Source: a virus
Direction: 5' to 3' (one strand)
Length of the DNA: 64,000 nt
IMG/VR virus record: IMGVR_UViG_3300032898_000001
Span: 31,532-95,531 of that record
A model generated the notes under the pieces. That model worked only from the letters and a program-made list of their open reading frames with translations. It ran no database searches and had not been told where the DNA came from. The stretch's first letter is position 1. Each line of letters begins with the position of its first letter. Below, one piece after another: positions 22,601-64,000 of this stretch. The position numbers and the translations under genes are program-made.

Positions 22601-23096
22601 AGGACGTTCCCGAGGGACAGAGCCGTTCTCAGCGTCACGCTCATCTCGTTCCTTCTCTCTTCTCTCTTCTCTCTTCCGAGGTGAGGCCCGAGCTCCGGGG
22701 AAGGGGAGCTCGGGCCTCGGTCTCAGCGCGGGCCGACCGACGGGCTGGCCTGGCGCGTGGGGTTGCTCGTCGATGGGCGGTCCGTGACCCGGAAGTCCGC
22801 CATCTTCGCGAACCGCGCGTACGCGAAGGTGTCGTGCAGGTCGGCCGCGACGGTCTTCTCCAGGCCGAGGTAGTGCATGGCCAGGTACTCGACGAGCAGG
22901 TGGACGGGACCGCTCACGCGGTAGGTGGGCCAGCCGTTGGCCTCTCCCGTCTGCAGGACGAGGATGCCGTTGACGGCCGGGGGAAGGCCGTCCTTGTCGC
23001 TCGCCCAGTCGAGCTCGACGGTGATCACGGGAACGCTGGTGTCGTCTGCCATGAGGGCTCCTTCTGGTTGCTGGTCGGTTTTTCCGACCTGAGGCA

Positions 23097-23127
23097 ACCA
23101 TATCACCTGCCACGCCATTTGTAAACA
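23097..23127 (-). promoter_or_regulatory. Sigma70-type promoter, TGTTTACA family
   Basis: TGTTTACA-N17-TATGGT. Confidence 0.7.
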
Positions 23128-23136
23128 CCCTCACGT

Positions 23137-23176
23137 AAAAAGTGGGGCCGCCCTCCCCGAAGAAGAGCGGCCCCAC
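23137..23176 (-). terminator. Intrinsic terminator closing the tRNA/ncRNA operon
   Basis: GTGGGGCCGC..GCGGCCCCAC then TTTTT on minus strand. Confidence 0.8.
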
Positions 23177-23351
23177 GCCGGCGTGCCCTTTCTAGTCGCG
23201 GTGACACGCCGTTTATCCCGGCTAACCGCTAAGGACGGCGTCGCCATCGGGCTCACCCCGGCGATGGCCACCTCGCGTGACCGGGGGTCTTGCCTAAACG
23301 AGACGGGCGGGCTCAAACACCCGCGGCACCCCGTCGGGTCCGTCTCGTTTT

Positions 23352-23424
23352 GTGCGCTGGCCCGACTCGAACGGGCCGGCAACCTTCTCGGTCCGGTGCA
23401 CCGGCCGATCTCGCGCAGCGCTCC
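23352..23424 (-). ncRNA. tRNA-like element (acceptor-like stem and T arm, no canonical D or anticodon arm)
   Basis: GCGCTG..GCCCG-TTCGAGT-CGGGC-CAGCGC-A. Confidence 0.55.
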
Positions 23425-23494
23425 ATCTTTCTAGGACGGTGCTCGATTCAAGCCGTGCCCTGATTATCGACACGGCTAACCGAGTAGAGCGTCG

Positions 23495-23565
23495 CACCTG
23501 GTCGAGGGATCGAACCTCGTTCTGCGCTTTTGGAGAGCGCCGTGCTGCCACTGCACCAACCAGGC
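23495..23565 (-). tRNA. tRNA-Trp(CCA)
   Basis: Cloverleaf; GCGCT-CTCCAAA-AGCGC; TTCGATC T loop. Confidence 0.9.
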
Positions 23566-23684
23566 CCGACCGATCGCTCCCACGTAAACCGGGACGCCGT
23601 GTACCAGGGGCCAGGCCCCCGGCATCGCGCTCGCCTCCCGGACCATCTTCTCCATACCCCATCCCGGCGGTGGTCCGAGCGCGA

Positions 23685-23822
23685 TCAGTCGTCTGTCTCT
23701 CGAGGCTCATCGCAGTCGACGCAAGAGTCGAACCGCTCGCTGTCGATGTTGAACCGGTGCCCGTGCACCTCACACGCGGTCCACTCCGAGAAGTCGATCT
23801 CGTCTCGTTCCTGGGTCTCCAC
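23685..23822 (-). CDS. Small acidic Cys/His protein inside the tRNA cluster
   Basis: GGAGG RBS; METQERDEIDFSEWTACEVHGH..CVDC. Confidence 0.55.
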   Translation of the reverse strand: METQERDEIDFSEWTACEVHGHRFNIDSERFDSCVDCDEPRETDD

Positions 23823-23978
23823 GTTTTGCCTCCTCTCTACGAACCGCGACGAGCCCGAACCAAACCACGTCTCGTCTCGAGGCACCCTGCAACGAATGTC
23901 GCGTTGGGCCGTCCCACCAGGAGGCCGTTCCTCGTCCTCCACGGCATGAGACTGGTCTCGCCGTGCCTCTTCCCTACG

Positions 23979-24049
23979 AGCCGTACCGGGGAATCGAACC
24001 CCGTCCCGCTGGTTGGAAGCCAGATATGCAGCCACTACACCAGTACGGC
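23979..24049 (-). tRNA. tRNA-Gly(TCC)
   Basis: GCCGTAC/GTACGGC acceptor, CTGG-CTTCCAA-CCAG, U discriminator. Confidence 0.88.
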
Positions 24050-24154
24050 ACACGGGACGGTTTCTACCTCCGACGCCTCGGCGTGCATACCCCCATCGAG
24101 CTCGTTACCGATCCCGAACGGTCTAGCTCCGACGTACGTCCCTCGGACCTCACG

Positions 24155-24225
24155 TGCCCCACGCCGGGATCGAACCGGCGACCACTGGATGAAAGCCAGC
24201 GATGTTGCCACTACACCAGTGGGGC
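24155..24225 (-). tRNA. tRNA-Glu(TTC)
   Basis: GCCCCAC/GTGGGGC acceptor; GCTGG-CTTTCAT-CCAGT. Confidence 0.85.
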
Positions 24226-24227
24226 GA

Positions 24228-24338
24228 GAAGAGGGTGACGGGAGTCGAACCCGCCCAGCGGACCGTCGTCCTTTTGGCGTACGCCGTCAGCCCTGACGCT
24301 CCGGGAGTCGAACCCGGATACTGCCGGTTACCCTCTTC
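24228..24338 (-). ncRNA. Double-T-loop structured RNA
   Basis: Closing stem GAAGAGGGT/ACCCTCTTC enclosing two TTCGACT hairpins and three small hairpins. Confidence 0.6.
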
Positions 24339-24340
24339 AG

Positions 24341-24412
24341 CTGACCCGGGAGGACTCGAACCTCCAACCACCTGGTTAACAGCCAGGAGCTCTGCCGTTG
24401 AGCTACGGATCA
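24341..24412 (-). tRNA. tRNA-Asn(GTT)
   Basis: Canonical cloverleaf; CCTGG-CTGTTAA-CCAGG. Confidence 0.93.
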
Positions 24413-24416
24413 TTGC

Positions 24417-24548
24417 GTGGGCCTCTGCCGCTGAGGTACCGATCGTGATCGTTCTCACCGTACCCGGTCTTCCGCCACGCGGTCCTTCGGGTCGTGCTCG
24501 AGCGACCTGCCAAACGATCGAGAGGGACTCGAACCCTCGTCTTCCCAC
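24417..24548 (-). ncRNA. Circularly permuted tRNA-like RNA with a large insertion in the acceptor stem
   Basis: Order GTGGG, T arm (GAGGG-TTCGAGT-CCCTC), TCGATCGT..insert..ACGATCGG, TA, D arm (CCTC-AGCGGCA-GAGG), CCCAC. Confidence 0.6.
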
Positions 24549-24550
24549 CG

Positions 24551-24622
24551 CGCCATCGACGGGAGTCGAACCCGCTGCCACCTGGCTGACAACCAGGCAC
24601 TCTACCGTTGAGTTACGACGGC
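24551..24622 (-). tRNA. tRNA-Asp(GTC)
   Basis: Canonical cloverleaf; CCTGG-TTGTCAG-CCAGG; G discriminator. Confidence 0.92.
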
Positions 24623-24627
24623 CTAGC

Positions 24628-24695
24628 ACGGTAGGGCTGCAACCCGCTGGGGAATCGAACCCCACCCTACCGCTGACGACCGTGGCCACGGTCGT
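24628..24695 (-). ncRNA. Small T-loop-containing structured element
   Basis: GCGGTAGGG/CCCTACCGT stem enclosing TGGGG-TTCGATT-CCCCA; preceded by perfect hairpin CGACCGT/ACGGTCG. Confidence 0.5.
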
Positions 24696-24698
24696 TTG

Positions 24699-24770
24699 TA
24701 CCCCACGCGGGGATCGAACCCGCGTCTCCTGGCTGAGAACCAGGTGTGACTGCCACTGCACCAGTGGGGC
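24699..24770 (-). tRNA. tRNA-Glu(CTC)
   Basis: CCTGG-TTCTCAG-CCAGG; body paralogous to tRNA-Glu(TTC). Confidence 0.85.
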
Positions 24771-24774
24771 TTTC

Positions 24775-24865
24775 CCGAGGGCCTAGCACCTGCGAGGGCT
24801 CGAACCTCCCACCGGTTACCAGCCGGTCGCTCCTGCGCCGGGTGTCGAACCCGGTAGGTCCTCGG
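24775..24865 (-). ncRNA. Double-T-loop structured RNA with an anticodon-like arm
   Basis: Closing CCGAGG-A-CCTA/TAGG-CCTCGG; CCGGG-TTCGACA-CCCGG; ACCGG-CTGGTAA-CCGGT; GAGG-TTCGAGC-CCTC. Confidence 0.6.
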
Positions 24866-24908
24866 TTCGGCGGTAAGGTTTGGTTTTCCTGACCGCCTGG
24901 TAGTACCT

Positions 24909-24939
24909 ACTATACCAGCCGCGGGGCAGCTTGTAAACA
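24909..24939 (-). promoter_or_regulatory. Promoter of the tRNA/ncRNA operon, TGTTTACA family
   Basis: TGTTTACA-N17-TATAGT with extended -10 TG. Confidence 0.75.
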
Positions 24940-24956
24940 GCTTTTGCCCCTCGTTT

Positions 24957-25481
24957 TCATGATTCTTTGCACAGTTCCTCGAGCCGCTGGCGGGTCCCGG
25001 GGTCGATCTTGTCGCGGATCAGCAGGTACGCGCCCCACCCGTCCCCCGGCCGACGATCCCGTTCTCGCCGGCCCCGTTCGCCTCTCAGCTCGTGGTTCAC
25101 GTGCCGAACGTGCCAGTACCGGGCCAGCGTGAGCGGGTACCGGGGACACACCTGGCAGCGGTACGGCTCCAGGTCCCCGGCGCGGGTGTTCCGCTCCACC
25201 AGGCGAGCGAACGCCTCCGCGTCCCGGCGGTTGTACAGCCGCACCTTGACGCAGGGCTGGCCGGGAACCGTCGGTTCCAGGAGCCAGTCGACGGCGCTCA
25301 GCCGGTCCGCGGCCAGGGTCTCCGCGGCCTCGCGCTTCTCCCGGCAGTACGTCAGGTCCTCGTACGCGGCGGTGAGCTCGCGGTTGAGGTCGGCCACTCG
25401 AAGCTCCTTGACCTCGAGGGCCGACCTCAGCTCGCTCAGCTCCCGGCTCTCACCGAGCCGGTGCCGCAGCCACGCCAGCAT
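24957..25481 (-). CDS. Hypothetical protein (coiled coil plus YRCxxC..WH zinc-finger-like motif)
   Basis: ORF track; PYRCQVC..YWHV. Confidence 0.65.
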   Translation of the reverse strand: MLAWLRHRLGESRELSELRSALEVKELRVADLNRELTAAYEDLTYCREKREAAETLAADRLSAVDWLLEPTVPGQPCVKVRLYNRRDAEAFARLVERNTRAGDLEPYRCQVCPRYPLTLARYWHVRHVNHELRGERGRRERDRRPGDGWGAYLLIRDKIDPGTRQRLEELCKES

Positions 25482-41655: not shown

Positions 41656-41733
41656 CCCGTCCGGTGCGAGGCACCGCCGCTACTTCTTCACAAAAAGTCT
41701 ACGCGGCTACCGCCACCTTTGACCTCGGACGGG
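41656..41733 (+). ncRNA. Y-RNA-like 1 (short, no tRNA-like domain)
   Basis: CCCGTCCG-GTGCG ... GACCT-CGGACGGG closing stem; TACTTC loop. Confidence 0.7.
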
Positions 41734-41761
41734 TTCGCTGGTACCTTGATAACTACAGACT

Positions 41762-41864
41762 TCTCTCCGGTGCGACGTCGGTCGTTCCTTCTCTTGCCAG
41801 CGGGGTCACTCCCGCAACGGGGACCTAAGAGACCCCACCGACCGGCAGCGAGACCTCGGAGAGA
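41762..41864 (+). ncRNA. Y-RNA-like 2
   Basis: TCTCTCCG-GTGCG ... GACCT-CGGAGAGA; two internal hairpins. Confidence 0.7.
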
Positions 41865-41872
41865 GCACTACT

Positions 41873-42003
41873 TCTCTCTGGTGCGCTGCTCGGCCGTTAC
41901 TTCTGCAAAGAAATCTGAGTTCGAATCTCAGTGACCGGCTAGCCCCGGTCATTAGCCCAAACTGGTATGGGCATCTCGGCTGACAACCCTGATCTCAGAG
42001 AGA
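41873..42003 (+). ncRNA. Y-RNA-like 3 (YrlA type, permuted tRNA domain)
   Basis: TCTCTCTG-GTGCG..GATCT-CAGAGAGA; T arm CTGAG-TTCGAAT-CTCAG, closed acceptor TGACCGG/CCGGTCA, D arm GCCC..GGGC. Confidence 0.85.
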
Positions 42004-42010
42004 CAGATCT

Positions 42011-42137
42011 TCTCTTCGGTGCGACGTGATCACATACTTCGCTGACCAAAAGATCTACCCCAGCGGGAGAGGTTCGACTCCTCTTCAGATCCACAGGCGG
42101 ACGGCCGCCGCGTGATTGCAGCGAGACCTCGAAGAGA
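42011..42137 (+). ncRNA. Y-RNA-like 4 (T arm only)
   Basis: TCTCTTCG-GTGCG..GACCT-CGAAGAGA; AGAGG-TTCGACT-CCTCT. Confidence 0.75.
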
Positions 42138-42144
42138 TCTAAGC

Positions 42145-42292
42145 GTTCTTCTCGGTGCGTAGCTACGAGATACTTCATGAGGAACTGAGGGTTACGGGTT
42201 CGAGTCCCGGACTCCCGATCTAACGGGAGGTAGCTCAATTGGTAGAGCATCAGTATAGCAAGCCTCGTTGCGACCCTGATCTCGAGAAGAAC
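42145..42292 (+). ncRNA. Y-RNA-like 5 (YrlA type)
   Basis: GTTCTTCTCG-GTGCG..GATCT-CGAGAAGAAC; T arm, CTCCCG/CGGGAG, TAGCTCAATTGGTAGAGC D arm. Confidence 0.88.
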
Positions 42293-42296
42293 ACCC

Positions 42297-42368
42297 GCCC
42301 CTGTAGCTCAGCGGGAGAGCGGCTGTCTTACAAGCAGCTGGTCGGTGGTTCGAATCCATCTGGGGGCA
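42297..42368 (+). tRNA. tRNA-Val(TAC)
   Basis: Cloverleaf; GCTGT-CTTACAA-GCAGC; A discriminator. Confidence 0.9.
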
Positions 42369-42369
42369 C

Positions 42370-42515
42370 GGATGCCTCGGTGCGCAGTTGAGACGTTCTT
42401 CGTCTGATAAACGAGTGGTCGTGGGTTCGAATCCCATCGTGGTCCGGGTACCGGATCGCGTAGCTCAACGGTAGAGCACTATGTCCGTCTTGACGACCTC
42501 GATCTCGAGGCATCC
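42370..42515 (+). ncRNA. Y-RNA-like 6 (YrlA type, retains an Ile(GAT)-like anticodon arm)
   Basis: GGATGCCTCG-GTGCG..GATCT-CGAGGCATCC; TCGT-CTGATAA-ACGA, T arm, closed acceptor, D arm. Confidence 0.88.
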
Positions 42516-42529
42516 TCGGTAAGAGCGCC

Positions 42530-42605
42530 AACCCGGTGCGACGACCACGGCCGTTACTTCCTTGTGGTGGATTCCAACACGGTCAGGTCACTTAGATCTC
42601 GGGTT
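42530..42605 (+). ncRNA. Y-RNA-like 7 (short)
   Basis: AACCCG-GTGCG..GATCT-CGGGTT; TACTTC loop. Confidence 0.7.
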
Positions 42606-42621
42606 CTGCGCTCTTACGTGA

Positions 42622-42694
42622 CGCGGGGTGTTGTAATCGGTAACCTGCCGGCCTCATAAGCCGGGCGTTCCGGGTTCGAATCCCGGCCCCGCTA
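42622..42694 (+). tRNA. tRNA-Met(CAT), initiator-like
   Basis: CGCGGGG/CCCCGCT with unpaired C1; CCGGC-CTCATAA-GCCGG. Confidence 0.88.
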
Positions 42695-42738
42695 CCGCGT
42701 AAGAGCACGGAACTCGGAAGACGGAAGAGAGGAACGAG

Positions 42739-44409
42739 ATGGCGGGATTCAACCGCGGCACGGTCAAGGCGACGGGGCGCGGGCCCCTCGCGACCGCGCC
42801 GACCCCGACGGGAACCACCCACGAGGGCGGCCCGGGCTACCAGCGCGACGCGAAGAGCGAGCTCTTTCTGCGTGCGACCACAATGTTCGTGGGCGAGAAG
42901 GCCTTCTACGAGTCCGCGAACGAGGGGGCGAACCGGCTGCGGGTCCTCGTGGCCGAGATCGTGAAGACCGACGAGGGCTGGGAGTGGCTGAAGGGCTTCC
43001 TGCCCTGGCTGCGGTCCGAGGCCAACATCCGCACCGCGGGCATCCTGCTCTCGGTGGAGGCGGTGCACGCCCGGCTGGCCTACGGCCTGCACGGGAACGG
43101 TAACCGGGAGCTCATCTCGCGGGTCCTGCAGCGCGCCGATGAGCCGGGTGAGGTCCTGGCTTACTGGACGTCCCGGTACGGCAAGGCGATCCCGAAGCCG
43201 ATCAAGCGAGGCGTCGCCGACGCAGCCACGCGGCTCTACTCGGAGCGCGGTTTCCTGCGATACGACAGCGACGCCAAGTCCTTCCGGTTCGGGGACGTTC
43301 TGGAACTGACCCACCCGGAGACCGACAAGGTGTGGCAGAAGGACCTGTTCAGCTGGGCGATCACGTCCCGGCAGGAGCGAGAGGGTGCCGAGCCGGCCGA
43401 GACGCTCGAGGCCGTTCGCCTGCGACGTGAACTGTCCCGACTTCCCGCCGAGCGCCGGCACGAGATCGCTCGCGGGGCCCTGGCTGGGGAAGGAACCGCT
43501 CGGAACGACATCGAGCGCGCCGCGGCCGGCCAGTGGGAGTGGGTCATCAGCTGGCTGGGGGACAAGCCCACTAGCGGCAAGGGCCTCACCAAGGCCGAGC
43601 AGTGGCAGCTCATCCTGCCGTCCCTCGGCTACATGGCCCTGATCCGCAACCTGCGGAACCTGGACCAGGCCGAGCTGGACGACGTGACCGCGGGCGGCCT
43701 CGCGACCCGGATCGCGAACCCGGAGCACGTCGCCACGTCGCGGCAGCTTCCGTTCCGGTTCTACTCGGCGTACAAGGAAGCCCCGTCCCTGCGGTGGAGC
43801 CACGCCCTGGACCGGGCCATGAGCCTGTCCCTGCAGAACGTGCCCGAGCTCACGGGCCGGTCCCTGATCCTCATCGACACCTCGGGATCCATGGAGATAC
43901 CGATGTCGAACCGGAGCGACCGGACCCGGGTGGAGGCCGCGGCGATCTTCGGCCTGGCATTGGCCCTGAAGAACCCGGAGAGCGTGGACGTATACGGCTT
44001 CGCGTCCGGAGAGTTCAAGGTCACCGGCGTGGACCGCGGCCTGAGCCTGCTCAAGGCCGTGGAGGCGTTCATCAGCCAGGTGGGCCGAGTCGGTCACGGC
44101 ACGGACATCCACGGGGCGGTGCAGCGTCAGTTCGTGGCAGGTCGCCACGACCGCGTGTTCATCTTCACGGACATGCAGACCGTGGGGACTTCGGGGTACG
44201 GTTACCGGAACAACACCATCGCCGAGCTCGTCCCGGCGAGCGTCCCGGTGTACGGTTTCAATCTGGCCGGCTACCAGCACTCGGCGATGCCGGTCGGGGA
44301 GGGCAACCGCCACGAGCTCGGTGGTCTCGGTGACGGCACGTTCTCGTTGATCCCGCAGCTCGAGGCCGGGACCACCGCGCGGTGGCCGTGGGAGACCACC
44401 GACGAGTGA
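42739..44409 (+). CDS. Ro60-like TROVE + vWA RNA-binding protein (Rsr homologue)
   Basis: THEGGPGY..KSELF, LQRADEPGE, KPIKRGVADA, DVLELTHP, MALIRNLRNL, SRQLPFRF, vWA MIDAS IDTSGSM, FTDMQ. Confidence 0.95.
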   Translation: MAGFNRGTVKATGRGPLATAPTPTGTTHEGGPGYQRDAKSELFLRATTMFVGEKAFYESANEGANRLRVLVAEIVKTDEGWEWLKGFLPWLRSEANIRTAGILLSVEAVHARLAYGLHGNGNRELISRVLQRADEPGEVLAYWTSRYGKAIPKPIKRGVADAATRLYSERGFLRYDSDAKSFRFGDVLELTHPETDKVWQKDLFSWAITSRQEREGAEPAETLEAVRLRRELSRLPAERRHEIARGALAGEGTARNDIERAAAGQWEWVISWLGDKPTSGKGLTKAEQWQLILPSLGYMALIRNLRNLDQAELDDVTAGGLATRIANPEHVATSRQLPFRFYSAYKEAPSLRWSHALDRAMSLSLQNVPELTGRSLILIDTSGSMEIPMSNRSDRTRVEAAAIFGLALALKNPESVDVYGFASGEFKVTGVDRGLSLLKAVEAFISQVGRVGHGTDIHGAVQRQFVAGRHDRVFIFTDMQTVGTSGYGYRNNTIAELVPASVPVYGFNLAGYQHSAMPVGEGNRHELGGLGDGTFSLIPQLEAGTTARWPWETTDE

Positions 44410-63237: not shown

Positions 63238-63721
63238 GTGGCCGCACTTCTCGAGGCGATGGAGCAGGCCGCTCCCGCCGCCAACCCGGACGCGGCTCAG
63301 GCCGACCTGGTCGGCGTGGCCCAGCGCTACTCCACCACCGGTGACGCCATCAAGGCGTCCATGGCGACCCTGGTCAAGGGCGCCGGCATGGCCAAGATCG
63401 GCGGCAACACGCCGCTGAGCAACGAGCGCGACATCACCGTTCGCGCCCACCAGGCCACGCTCGACCTCCGTACCTCCACCTACCAGGGCATCAACGACCG
63501 CCAGTCGGTCGTCAAGTCCATGAACTCCGGCTTCCTGAACCAGTTCGGGAACCTCAAGACCGCCCTCACCACCCCGTCCCTGGGAGAGCAGCTCTCCCAG
63601 CTCGTCGGGATGCTTCCCGGTGGTACCGAGGCCCTGAAGTCGTTCACCGCCGGCAACCTGGGAATTGGCTCGGTCTACGGCCTGGTGCCGTTCGACCTGC
63701 TCGCACCTTCTCGTCTGATCT
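63238..63721 (+). CDS. Major capsid protein, exon 1
   Basis: Follows protease/scaffold with AAGGA RBS; GLVPFDLLAPSRLI, then the frame is broken exactly where intron motifs start. Confidence 0.8.
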
Positions 63722-64000
63722 GAATTTGGGGACGGATCCTCGTTCGGTAACGAACGTGTAAAACTCCGAGAATTGCTGGAACGTCCTGCTAGACCTCAGC
63801 ACCACAACGTGGGGTGAAAACCCGAGCGTGATGGTTTGAAAAGATTGAGGGTAGGGAAAATCAGCAGCCGAGCCCGCCTGATTCGTTCGACGGGAAGGTT
63901 CAGAGACTATGTACGGAGCTCCTCAAATGAGGATGAAGATATAGTCCGATCTGCATGGAAATATGCAGAACTGAGCAGAAATGTCTCAGTCCATCGTATT
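63722..64000 (+). mobile_element. Group I intron (3' end outside window)
   Basis: P AATTGCTGGAA, Q AATCAGCAG, R GTTCAGAGACTA, S AAGATATAGTCC; P1 GATCT/GGATC with U.G; P3 CTCCG/CGGAG; P7 GACTA/TAGTC; P8 and P9 hairpins. Confidence 0.95.

What the first reader, a model, noticed from the sequence alone, without database searches (positions are those of the whole stretch)
23137..24939. tRNA-punctuated operon of novel T-loop RNAs
Seen: one promoter-to-terminator unit in which six canonical tRNAs alternate with spacers that each fold into a closed multibranch structure. At least seven extra GTTCGA T-loop hairpins lie outside the tRNAs (about 23365, 24245, 24310, 24530, 24655, 24800, 24848). The closing stems are well paired, which argues against simple tRNA decay. 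Inference: RNase P/3' processing of the flanking tRNAs releases a set of tRNA-elbow mimics, acting as decoys for anticodon nucleases, T-box/RNase P ligands or Ro60 partners. I cannot assign them to a known family.
Basis: partly seen in the sequence, partly recalled or inferred. Interest (0 to 1): 0.85.

Follow-up and report, generated by a model that had tools for sequence, protein, structure and literature searches.

The report
Anticodon-less tRNA look-alikes between phage tRNAs
A 95-kb uncultured phage transcribes six ordinary tRNAs in one unit, and the gaps between them hold tRNA-shaped RNAs with no anticodon, one of them a complete tRNA body in rotated order; they are probably tRNA mimics related to the heads of known Y RNAs, but neither expression nor conservation could be tested.

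Summary
One promoter-to-terminator unit on the minus strand (24937 to 23142) carries six tRNAs and seven extra T-arms. Genome-wide, perfect T-arms number 17 against about 1.1 expected, and all lie in the two tRNA clusters.

The spacers are not one family:
- S3 (24550-24413) is a complete, circularly permuted tRNA body with a 68-nt rod capping its acceptor stem. Its open anticodon stem ends 2 and 4 nt from the flanking tRNAs. No shuffle of 20,000 reproduced it.
- S4 and S1 each carry two T-arms inside a closing helix.
- S2 is a minimal T-arm junction.
- S7 holds a tRNA-sized RNA with a good acceptor/T minihelix but no anticodon.
- S5 and S6 are unremarkable.

The phage also encodes Ro60/Rsr with a Y-RNA array 18 kb away, but cluster 1 lacks that array's handle motifs. 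Best reading (about 0.5): tRNA processing releases stable tRNA-body mimics, a handle-less variant of the YrlA kind. They cannot be anticodon-loop decoys.

No homologues, covariation or expression data were reachable. Earlier notes of this scan report similar RNAs on other phage DNA.

The parts
24909..24937 (-). Promoter of the unit: -35 TTTACA, 17-nt spacer, extended -10 TG-n-TATAGT. Inferred transcription start near 24902.
   Evidence: 2 promoter-like sites found against 0.2 expected in shuffles.
24771..24905 (-). S1, a leader RNA with two T-arms. Hairpin 24897-24869. Closing helix 24865-24855 with 24785-24775 (6 + 4 bp around one A.C mismatch). T-arm A 24854-24838. D-arm-like hairpin with CUGGUAA loop 24827-24811. 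T-arm B 24809-24793 (4 bp).
   Evidence: T-arm B is not in the minimum-energy fold: the fold with both T-arms is -57.4 against -61.0 kcal/mol.
24698..24770 (-). tRNA-Glu (CUC)
24623..24697 (-). S2. An 8-bp hairpin 24695-24676, then a minimal junction: 7-bp closing helix 24671-24665 with 24636-24630, T-arm 24664-24648 directly after its 5' strand, and an 11-nt linker.
   Evidence: Core z -3.1. The fold with the T-arm is 2.5 kcal/mol above the minimum-energy fold.
24550..24622 (-). tRNA-Asp (GUC)
24413..24550 (-). S3, a circularly permuted, anticodon-less tRNA body. 3' half 24548-24514: anticodon-stem strand, 5-nt variable loop, T-arm, 7-nt acceptor strand, U73. A 68-nt rod, 24513-24446, caps the acceptor stem. 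5' half 24445-24417: acceptor strand, UA, D-arm CCUC/GAGG with loop AGCGGCA, anticodon-stem strand.
   Evidence: With any 7-nt loop put in and the order restored, ARAGORN calls a perfect cloverleaf at its default threshold. The minimum-energy and centroid folds are both this fold. 0 of 20,000 flank shuffles reproduce it. Weak Rfam YrlA match, 17.9 bits.
24340..24412 (-). tRNA-Asn (GUU)
24226..24339 (-). S4, a closed RNA with two T-arms. 9-bp terminal helix 24338-24330 with 24236-24228. Inner stem 24327-24323 with 24259-24255. T-arm A 24317-24301. 5-bp hairpin with GGGC loop 24298-24285. A possible UA + D-arm (loop AAAAGGAC) 24281-24264. T-arm B 24254-24238, one nt from the 3' strand of the terminal helix.
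   Evidence: The minimum-energy and centroid folds show this architecture, z -2.7. A terminal helix this long appears in 37 of 5000 shuffles.
24154..24225 (-). tRNA-Glu (UUC)
24050..24153 (-). S5, a spacer with no canonical T-arm and no significant structure.
   Evidence: z -0.5.
23978..24049 (-). tRNA-Gly (UCC)
23685..23822 (-). A 45-codon ORF inside spacer S6 with a GAGGAGG ribosome-binding site 7 nt upstream. Its product has a C..H / C..C pattern.
   Evidence: No Pfam family.
23494..23565 (-). tRNA-Trp (CCA)
23351..23423 (-). tRNA-like element in S7, 73 nt, in normal tRNA order. Acceptor stem of 7 pairs with one A.A mismatch, perfect T-arm 23376-23360, but an 8-bp rod with a UGCA loop (23408-23388) in place of the D and anticodon arms.
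   Evidence: ARAGORN calls it only at 80% threshold, with a 6-nt 'anticodon loop'. Fold z -1.7.
23142..23176 (-). Intrinsic terminator: 16-bp stem followed by UUUUU.
41656..44409 (+). Context, not part of the finding: an array of Y-RNA-like RNAs with shared handle motifs, tRNA-Val, tRNA-Met and the Ro60/Rsr gene (42739-44409).
   Evidence: Rfam YrlA 35.1 and 30.8 bits, below the gathering score of 69. TROVE and vWA domains. Seven (C)GGTGCG motifs.

Best explanation
The unit is a tRNA operon in which at least five spacers encode anticodon-less tRNA look-alikes. Shown from sequence: one promoter and one terminator; six tRNAs without encoded CCA; and structured domains in S1-S4 that reach to within 1-7 nt of the adjacent tRNA (S7's tRNA-like element, 23423-23351, lies inside its spacer, about 70 nt from tRNA-Trp). 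Inferred: host RNase P and RNase Z, while cutting out the tRNAs, automatically release each spacer as a discrete RNA with a 5' phosphate and 3' hydroxyl. Because the ends are buried in helices, these RNAs should resist 3' exonucleases and accumulate. Each displays one or two canonical T-loops. S3 is a whole tRNA body in rotated order, the same design as the head of a YrlA Y RNA, but the Ro60-binding handle is replaced by the processing sites of tRNA-Asp and tRNA-Asn. Its 7-bp acceptor stem could be opened by a second RNase P / RNase Z cut followed by CCA addition, as reported for Mycobacterium smegmatis YrlA. Most likely function (inferred, untested): they occupy or recruit proteins that recognise the tRNA body (acceptor/T minihelix and elbow) rather than the anticodon. 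That is the role usually proposed for the tRNA-like module of YrlA, here without a tether to Ro60.
For: T-arms are about 15-fold over expectation and occur only in the tRNA clusters, on the tRNA strand. S3: all 21 pairs of the four stems are intact, with U8 and a GG D-loop; ARAGORN calls a cloverleaf once the order is restored; the minimum-energy and centroid folds match it; 0 of 20,000 shuffles reproduce it. S4: the 9-bp terminal helix spans the whole spacer (37 of 5000 shuffles), z -2.7. Similarity between the orphan elements and any tRNA of this genome stops at the 15-18-nt T-arm, so they are not recent copies of neighbouring tRNAs. The same genome holds Ro60/Rsr and YrlA-like heads, so the design is in use in this phage. 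M. smegmatis YrlA is cut by RNase P and receives CCA in vivo (PMC4201824). T4 makes two stable RNAs of unknown role from its tRNA region (PMC3014915). At class level, at least 119 IMG/VR contigs have two T-arms closer together than one tRNA length. In 59 of 122 matches neither T-arm lies in a called tRNA. Closed two-T-arm folds like S4 occur in L024, L036, L069 and L087, and in the L049/L121/L128/L132 family, whose inner hairpin shows compensating changes. L071 has a permuted head that ends 4 nt before a tRNA-Gly.
Against: This is a single genome, with no homologue of any spacer and therefore no covariation. There are no expression or end-mapping data. Thermodynamic support is moderate (S3 z -0.8; S1 core and the S7 element about -1.7). 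For S1 and S2 the folds that keep the T-arms are 2.5-3.6 kcal/mol above the minimum-energy fold. The D-arm proposed in S4 competes with a more stable hairpin. The elements differ from one another, which also fits debris from rearranged tRNA genes. No binding partner is identified.
Confidence: 0.5

Rival explanations
1. Evolutionary debris. The spacers are rearranged or truncated leftovers of tRNA and Y-RNA genes in a recombination-prone array. They are transcribed only because they sit between live tRNAs and are degraded after processing. S3 would be the facing halves of two tandem copies of one tRNA.
For: The elements are heterogeneous and share no common architecture. Two spacers (S5, S6) have no special structure. 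Fold z-scores are weak for S3, S1 and the S7 element. The closest terminase relatives carry no tRNAs at all, so the cluster is evolutionarily labile. The permuted order is also the natural order across any tRNA-tRNA junction, and my own detector picked up adjacent tRNAs as false positives.
Against: Neutral decay should not leave seven of seven T-loops with G53, U54, U55, C56, purine 57, A58 and C61 intact while D and anticodon arms vanish. S3 keeps 21 of 21 stem pairs, and both truncations would have to fall exactly at the anticodon-stem ends. S4's 9-bp helix joins the two ends of the spacer. There is no extended similarity to any parental tRNA.
Confidence: 0.25
2. Elements that act in cis. 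The extra acceptor/T minihelices and closed folds keep neighbouring tRNAs from misfolding in the polycistronic precursor, and give RNase P, RNase Z or the CCA-adding enzyme extra docking sites. They would aid tRNA maturation and have no role once released.
For: The structured domains of S1-S4 reach to within 1-7 nt of the flanking tRNA ends. RNase P measures from the T-loop/elbow along the acceptor/T stack (PMC4919913). The spacers with T-arms all lie in the tightly packed 5' part of the operon.
Against: Ordinary bacterial and phage tRNA operons are processed without such spacers. S5, and S6 on both sides of the ORF, manage without T-arms in the same transcript. A complete permuted tRNA body with a D-arm (S3) is far more than an insulator needs.
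Confidence: 0.12
3. A second set of ligands for the phage Ro60/Rsr, that is, Y RNAs encoded away from the rsr gene.
For: The phage encodes a TROVE + vWA protein. S3 has the YrlA head topology, and Rfam YrlA gives weak matches in cluster 1 (17.9 and 16.3 bits). M. smegmatis YrlB is a Ro60-bound RNA reported to have a possible T-arm (PMC4201824).
Against: None of the motifs shared by the seven cluster-2 RNAs occurs on the transcribed strand of cluster 1: (C)GGTGCG ... [A/U]CUUC on the 5' side and ACCYUGAUCUC / GACCUCGRAGAG on the 3' side. The published GNCGAAN0-1G motif is also absent. The S3 stem stops after 5 bp at the tRNA processing sites. The locus lies 18 kb from rsr on the other strand. 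The Rfam scores are far below the gathering score of 69.
Confidence: 0.1
4. Binders of the tRNA elbow rather than mimics. In S1 and S4 the two T-loops interlock into an interdigitated T-loop platform like those of RNase P, T-box Stem I and the ribosomal L1 stalk, and dock onto the elbows of tRNAs.
For: S1 and S4 each hold two T-loops in one closed RNA. The interdigitated T-loop motif recognises the tRNA elbow in three unrelated RNAs, and its authors proposed searching viral transcriptomes for it (PMC4919913).
Against: Known interdigitated motifs use pentanucleotide T-loops set in bulges and loops of one compact domain, not two full 7-nt T-arm hairpins 46-63 nt apart. Nothing in the sequence tests whether the loops interlock. 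S1 T-arm B is not in the minimum-energy fold.
Confidence: 0.06

Closest known systems
YrlA (Y RNA-like A, Rfam RF02553), the tRNA-mimicking Y RNA of bacterial and phage Ro60/Rsr (Chen et al. 2014, PMC4201824)
   Same: S3 has the same rotated order: T-arm, capped acceptor stem, D-arm, closed by an anticodon-like stem. The phage has Ro60/Rsr and YrlA-like RNAs elsewhere. A 7-bp acceptor stem is the feature that lets M. smegmatis YrlA be cut by RNase P and receive CCA.
   Different: There is no Ro60-binding handle or GNCGAA motif. Rfam scores are 17.9 bits or less against a gathering score of 69. A 68-nt rod replaces the short loop on the acceptor stem. The locus is 18 kb from rsr, and the ends are defined by flanking tRNAs. 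S1, S2, S4 and the S7 element do not have the YrlA topology at all.
Phage T4 RNAC and RNAD (species 1 and 2 RNAs) from the T4 tRNA region (PMC3014915)
   Same: Small stable non-tRNA RNAs made from a phage tRNA transcription unit, with unknown role.
   Different: No sequence or structure comparison was made here. T4 has two such RNAs, this operon at least five, and the T-arm content of the T4 RNAs was not checked.
tRNA-like RNAs released by RNase P and RNase Z, such as mascRNA (Rfam RF01684)
   Same: An acceptor/T-arm minihelix without a decoding anticodon, excised by the tRNA-processing enzymes. This is closest to the S7 element and to the outer frame of S4.
   Different: mascRNA is eukaryotic and sits at the 3' end of a long noncoding RNA. 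Rfam matches here fall only on the real tRNAs. This resemblance rests on my own knowledge of mascRNA processing.
Interdigitated T-loop motif of RNase P, T-box Stem I and the L1 stalk (PMC4919913)
   Same: Two T-loops in one RNA (S1, S4).
   Different: The known motif uses pentanucleotide T-loops in one compact domain and binds tRNA rather than mimicking it. Interlocking is untested here.
tRNA gene fragments and pseudogenes
   Same: T-arm-containing pieces that tRNA finders do not call.
   Different: No extended similarity to a parent tRNA. The stems of S3 and S4 are intact and complementary across the spacer. All seven T-loops keep the invariant bases.

Membership tests
YrlA (RF02553) | tRNA-like module in rotated order: T-arm, loop-capped acceptor stem, D-arm | tested here: met
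   Met for S3 only: (7/7 acceptor, 4/4 D-stem with a GG loop, 5/5 closing stem, 5/5 T-stem). S4's inner domain fits loosely (5-bp capped hairpin; the D-arm is uncertain).
YrlA (RF02553) | Long 5'/3' stem with the Ro60-binding site (GNCGAAN0-1G motif) | tested here: not met
   no GNCGAAN0-1G motif and none of the cluster-2 handle motifs on the transcribed strand of 23100-24960. The S3 stem is 5 bp and ends at the tRNA processing sites.
YrlA (RF02553) | Score at or above the Rfam gathering threshold | tested here: not met
   17.9 and 16.3 bits against 69; no hit at the gathering threshold.
YrlA (RF02553) | Encoded next to rsr (within about 2 kb in the described cases) | tested here: not met
   rsr lies at 42739-44409 on the plus strand, about 18 kb away on the other strand.
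YrlA (RF02553) | Bound by Ro60/Rsr | not testable with these tools
   Needs a pull-down or gel shift.
Canonical tRNA (RF00005) | Anticodon arm with a 7-nt loop in a cloverleaf of normal order | tested here: not met
   ARAGORN at default and Rfam call only the six tRNAs. Lower-threshold calls are poor or overlap real tRNAs or the promoter.
tmRNA (one-piece or two-piece) | tRNA-like domain with a G3.U70 pair plus a tag reading frame | tested here: not met
   ARAGORN with the tmRNA search on the whole genome finds none. Rfam tmRNA matches cover only the T-arms, about 13 bits. No G3.U70 in the S4 or S7 acceptor stems, read directly from the sequence.
tRNA pseudogene or fragment | Extended sequence similarity to a parent tRNA, with decay spread over all arms | tested here: not met
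   similarity to any tRNA of this genome is limited to 15-18 nt of T-arm. All seven T-loops keep the invariant bases.
Interdigitated T-loop module | Two T-loops that interlock head to tail | not testable with these tools
   Two T-loops are present in S1 and S4. Interlocking needs probing or a solved structure.
Stable RNAs of phage tRNA operons (T4 RNAC/RNAD type) | Co-transcribed with tRNAs and accumulating as discrete RNAs | tested here: inconclusive
   Co-transcription is inferred from one promoter and one terminator.

The most novel reading that the evidence does not exclude
The operon is a dedicated factory for tRNA-body RNAs that act without Ro60. tRNA genes serve as the punctuation that cuts out a set of different anticodon-less mimics: a handle-less permuted body and RNAs with two T-loops. 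These either soak up host defence nucleases or other factors that recognise tRNA shape, or (for the two-T-loop RNAs) clamp onto tRNA elbows as RNase P and T-boxes do. Either would be an undescribed class of phage small RNA and a new use for tRNA processing.
Probability: 0.2. Interest if true: 0.85.

Novelty: new variant of a known kind. Interest (0 to 1): 0.6.

Why it matters
Why phages carry tRNA genes is still debated, and the spacers of their tRNA operons are normally ignored. Here most of the spacers look like purpose-built tRNA look-alikes. One is the head of a Y RNA without the part that binds Ro60, which suggests that the tRNA-like module has a job of its own; that job is an open question for bacterial Y RNAs. 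The locus gives short, defined RNAs (about 75, 114, 138 and 73 nt) with predicted ends, so the idea can be tested directly by RNA sequencing, RNase P cleavage and pull-downs. Similar closely spaced orphan T-arms occur in at least 119 IMG/VR contigs, so such RNAs may be common and unannotated.

Tried and rejected
Homologue hunt, all negative:
- The flanking proteins P0002 (24957-25481) and the 109-aa ORF (22723-23052) have no relatives in viral contigs, metagenome contigs, genome contigs or cultured phages.
- P0002 has three relatives in the large protein collection: P0004 and P0005 at 76% and 74% identity, and P0006 in P0004's 90% cluster.
- The closest terminase relatives (L004-L006, 61-68% identity) carry no tRNAs.
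- The only Rsr relative found is 44% identical and sits at a contig end.
- blastn of the whole region against 50,697 phages matches only about 100 nt around tRNA-Asn.
- blastn of the spacers against 1 Mb of fetched phage tRNA regions matches only T-arm-sized stretches of 24-27 nt.

Readings rejected:
- Intron-containing or long-arm tRNAs. ARAGORN calls at lowered thresholds overlap real tRNAs or the promoter.
- tmRNA.
- A true permuted tRNA gene matured by ligation. Joining the S3 ends would give a 6-nt loop without U33, and the phage has no RtcB or RNA ligase family hit.
- Protein-coding on either strand. The long ORFs across the cluster have no Pfam family.

Method that failed: a brute-force 'restore the order and run ARAGORN' scan was too permissive to be informative. 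A stricter detector also picked up junctions between adjacent tRNAs. I therefore rely only on S3, where no room exists for the missing halves.
Full report
**What is there.** The window is bases 31532-95531 of a 95,531-bp IMG/VR virus record with direct terminal repeats. GC content is about 67%. The best DNA matches of its tRNA-Asn are in Mycobacterium and Gordonia phages, so the host is probably an actinobacterium. ARAGORN and Rfam agree on six tRNAs on the minus strand between 23494 and 24770: Trp, Gly, Glu-UUC, Asn, Asp and Glu-CUC. A consensus scan finds one promoter (TTTACA, 17 nt, TG-n-TATAGT, 24937-24909) and one strong terminator (16-bp stem plus U-run, 23176-23142). A second promoter of the same type follows at 23125-23097 for the next gene. 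None of the six tRNAs encodes CCA, but each is followed by a C.

**The extra T-arms are real and not chance.** A search for a 5-bp stem closing a UUCRANN loop finds 17 sites in the whole genome, against 1.1 +/- 1.1 in 40 Markov-1 simulated genomes. All 17 lie in the two tRNA clusters, on the tRNA strand. Eight belong to tRNAs. Six are orphans in this unit (G53 at 23372, 24250, 24313, 24534, 24660, 24850), and a seventh at about 24805 has a 4-bp stem. Three more orphans lie in the second cluster, at 41.9-42.4 kb. All seven orphans here keep G53, U54, U55, C56, G57, A58 and C61. Beyond the 15-18-nt T-arm they show no similarity to each other or to any tRNA of this genome. Nothing but tRNA reaches an Rfam gathering score in this unit.

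**Anatomy, spacer by spacer (minus strand).**
- **S3 (24550-24413)** is the clearest. In order it reads: GUGGG, a 5-nt variable loop, the T-arm, a 7-nt acceptor strand, U; then a 68-nt insert; then the complementary acceptor strand, UA, a D-arm (CCUC/GAGG, loop AGCGGCA) and CCCAC.
  - Putting the two halves in normal order with any 7-nt loop makes ARAGORN call a perfect cloverleaf at its default threshold.
  - The unconstrained minimum-energy and centroid folds of the native sequence are exactly this four-way junction, with the insert as a rod on the acceptor stem.
  - None of 20,000 shuffles of the flanks reproduces 7/7, 4/4 (with GG) and 5/5 pairs.
  - The open anticodon-like stem starts 2 nt after tRNA-Asp and ends 4 nt before tRNA-Asn. 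There is therefore no room for the 'missing' halves of two ordinary tRNAs.
  - An earlier first-reader note in this scan (e1-5988542) proposed this topology; I tested it here.
- **S4 (24339-24226)** has a 9-bp helix joining its two ends (37 of 5000 shuffles do as well). T-arm B lies one nt from the 3' strand of that helix, as in a tRNA. An inner domain closed by CCGGC/GCUGG holds T-arm A, a 5-bp hairpin capped by GGGC, and small hairpins. A UA + D-arm-like reading (loop AAAAGGAC) is possible but costs 3-5 kcal/mol. The minimum-energy and centroid folds show this architecture, z -2.7.
- **S1 (24905-24771)** has a leader hairpin and then a 6 + 4 bp closing helix. The helix encloses T-arm A, a hairpin with a D-loop-like CUGGUAA loop, and T-arm B. 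The fold that keeps both T-arms is 3.6 kcal/mol above the minimum-energy fold.
- **S2 (24697-24623)** is an 8-bp hairpin followed by a 7-bp helix that encloses only a T-arm and an 11-nt linker.
- **S7** contains a 73-nt element (23423-23351) in normal tRNA order, with a good acceptor stem and T-arm. An 8-bp rod with a UGCA loop sits where the D and anticodon arms should be.
- **S5 and S6** have no T-arm and no unusual stability. S6 carries a 45-codon ORF with a strong ribosome-binding site.

**Relation to the phage's Ro60 system.** The same genome encodes a TROVE + vWA protein (Ro60/Rsr) at 42739-44409. Upstream of it lie tRNA-Val, tRNA-Met and an array of RNAs whose tRNA-like heads give sub-threshold Rfam YrlA matches of 35.1 and 30.8 bits. 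Those RNAs share 5' (C)GGTGCG ... [A/U]CUUC and 3' ACCYUGAUCUC / GACCUCGRAGAG motifs. None of these motifs, and no GNCGAAN0-1G, occurs on the transcribed strand of cluster 1. Cluster 1 therefore holds the head design without the handle. An earlier follow-up in this scan (e1-5988555) had already described the Ro60 locus as a known kind; my checks agree.

**Comparative evidence.**
- No homologue of any spacer could be reached; the details are under Tried and rejected.
- In 59 of 122 matches neither T-arm lies in a called tRNA. In 57 the first does and the second is an orphan.
- Several matches fold like S4: L024, L036, L069, L087 and the L049/L121/L128/L132 family. That family shows compensating changes in its inner hairpin.
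- L071 has a permuted head ending 4 nt before a tRNA-Gly, the same punctuation design as S3.
- These are analogies, not homologues. Other notes of this scan (for example e1-5361100 and e1-5643330) report handle-less heads and 'double-elbow' RNAs in other phages. I used them as leads only.

**How it most likely works.** Shown: the unit, the tRNAs, the T-arms, the S3 cloverleaf and the S4 closure. Inferred: RNase P and RNase Z free the spacers when they free the tRNAs, the buried ends make the spacers stable, and they act as tRNA-body mimics. M. smegmatis YrlA, which also has a 7-bp acceptor stem, is cut by RNase P and gains CCA in vivo (PMC4201824). This predicts a nicked, CCA-tailed S3. T4's RNAC and RNAD show that phage tRNA regions can yield stable non-tRNA RNAs (PMC3014915). 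I put this reading at about 0.5. The rivals are:
- debris of rearranged tRNA genes, about 0.25;
- purely cis-acting processing aids, about 0.12;
- Ro60 ligands without a recognisable handle, about 0.1;
- interdigitated-T-loop elbow binders, about 0.06 (PMC4919913).
A role as decoys for anticodon-loop nucleases is excluded by the anatomy.

**Novelty and limits.** The parts are known: the T-arm, the YrlA head and the idea of tRNA processing as punctuation. The combination is not in Rfam, and none of the papers my searches returned describes it. That combination is a handle-less permuted body flush with tRNAs, closed RNAs with two T-arms, and at least five such RNAs in one operon of a phage that also has a Ro60 system. 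It is a new variant of a known kind. The weak points are the single sequence, the moderate fold statistics and the absence of any expression data.

Noticed in passing
window 23685-23822 (-): A 45-codon ORF with a GAGGAGG ribosome-binding site sits inside the tRNA operon between tRNA-Gly and tRNA-Trp. Its product has a C..H / C..C pattern and matches no Pfam family.
   Followed up: partly
window 23495-24770 (-): All six tRNAs lack an encoded CCA, yet each is followed directly by a C after the discriminator base (trailers start CA, CG, CU, CG, CG, CG).
   Followed up: no
window 23097-23125 (-) and 24909-24937 (-): Two promoters of the same form (TTTACA, 17 nt, TG-n-TAT(A/G)GT). One drives the tRNA unit, the other the next gene downstream of the terminator.
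   Followed up: no
window 23296-23350 (-): A 55-nt hairpin with a perfect 11-bp outer stem starts directly after the S7 tRNA-like element. It has no clear U-run, so it is not an obvious terminator.
   Followed up: no
window 41656-42700 (+): The Y-RNA-like array upstream of rsr has seven (C)GGTGCG motifs. tRNA-Val (42297-42369) sits where other units have a short hairpin between the 3' and 5' handle motifs, as if a tRNA had replaced that hairpin.
   Followed up: partly
window 24957-25481 (-), proteins P0002, P0004, P0005, P0006: A 174-aa protein of unknown family ends 20 nt upstream of the operon promoter. It has only three relatives among 5.8 billion clusters (two aligned, at 74-76% identity; P0006 sits in P0004's 90% cluster), with invariant RC..CPRYPLTLARYWHVRH.
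   Followed up: partly
L049, L121, L128, L132 (IMG/VR contigs): A family of roughly 100-nt closed RNAs with two T-arms, in which an inner hairpin changes by compensating substitutions (GCUCC/GGAGC to ACCUC/GAGGU).
   Followed up: partly
L071 (IMGVR_UViG_3300044470_000166), minus strand about 1138-1207: A permuted tRNA-like head with a 7-bp acceptor stem capped by a short loop ends 4 nt before a tRNA-Gly. This is the same 'tRNA as punctuation' design as S3.
   Followed up: partly
window 63707-63968 (+): A group I intron reaches the Rfam gathering score (69.2 bits).
   Followed up: no
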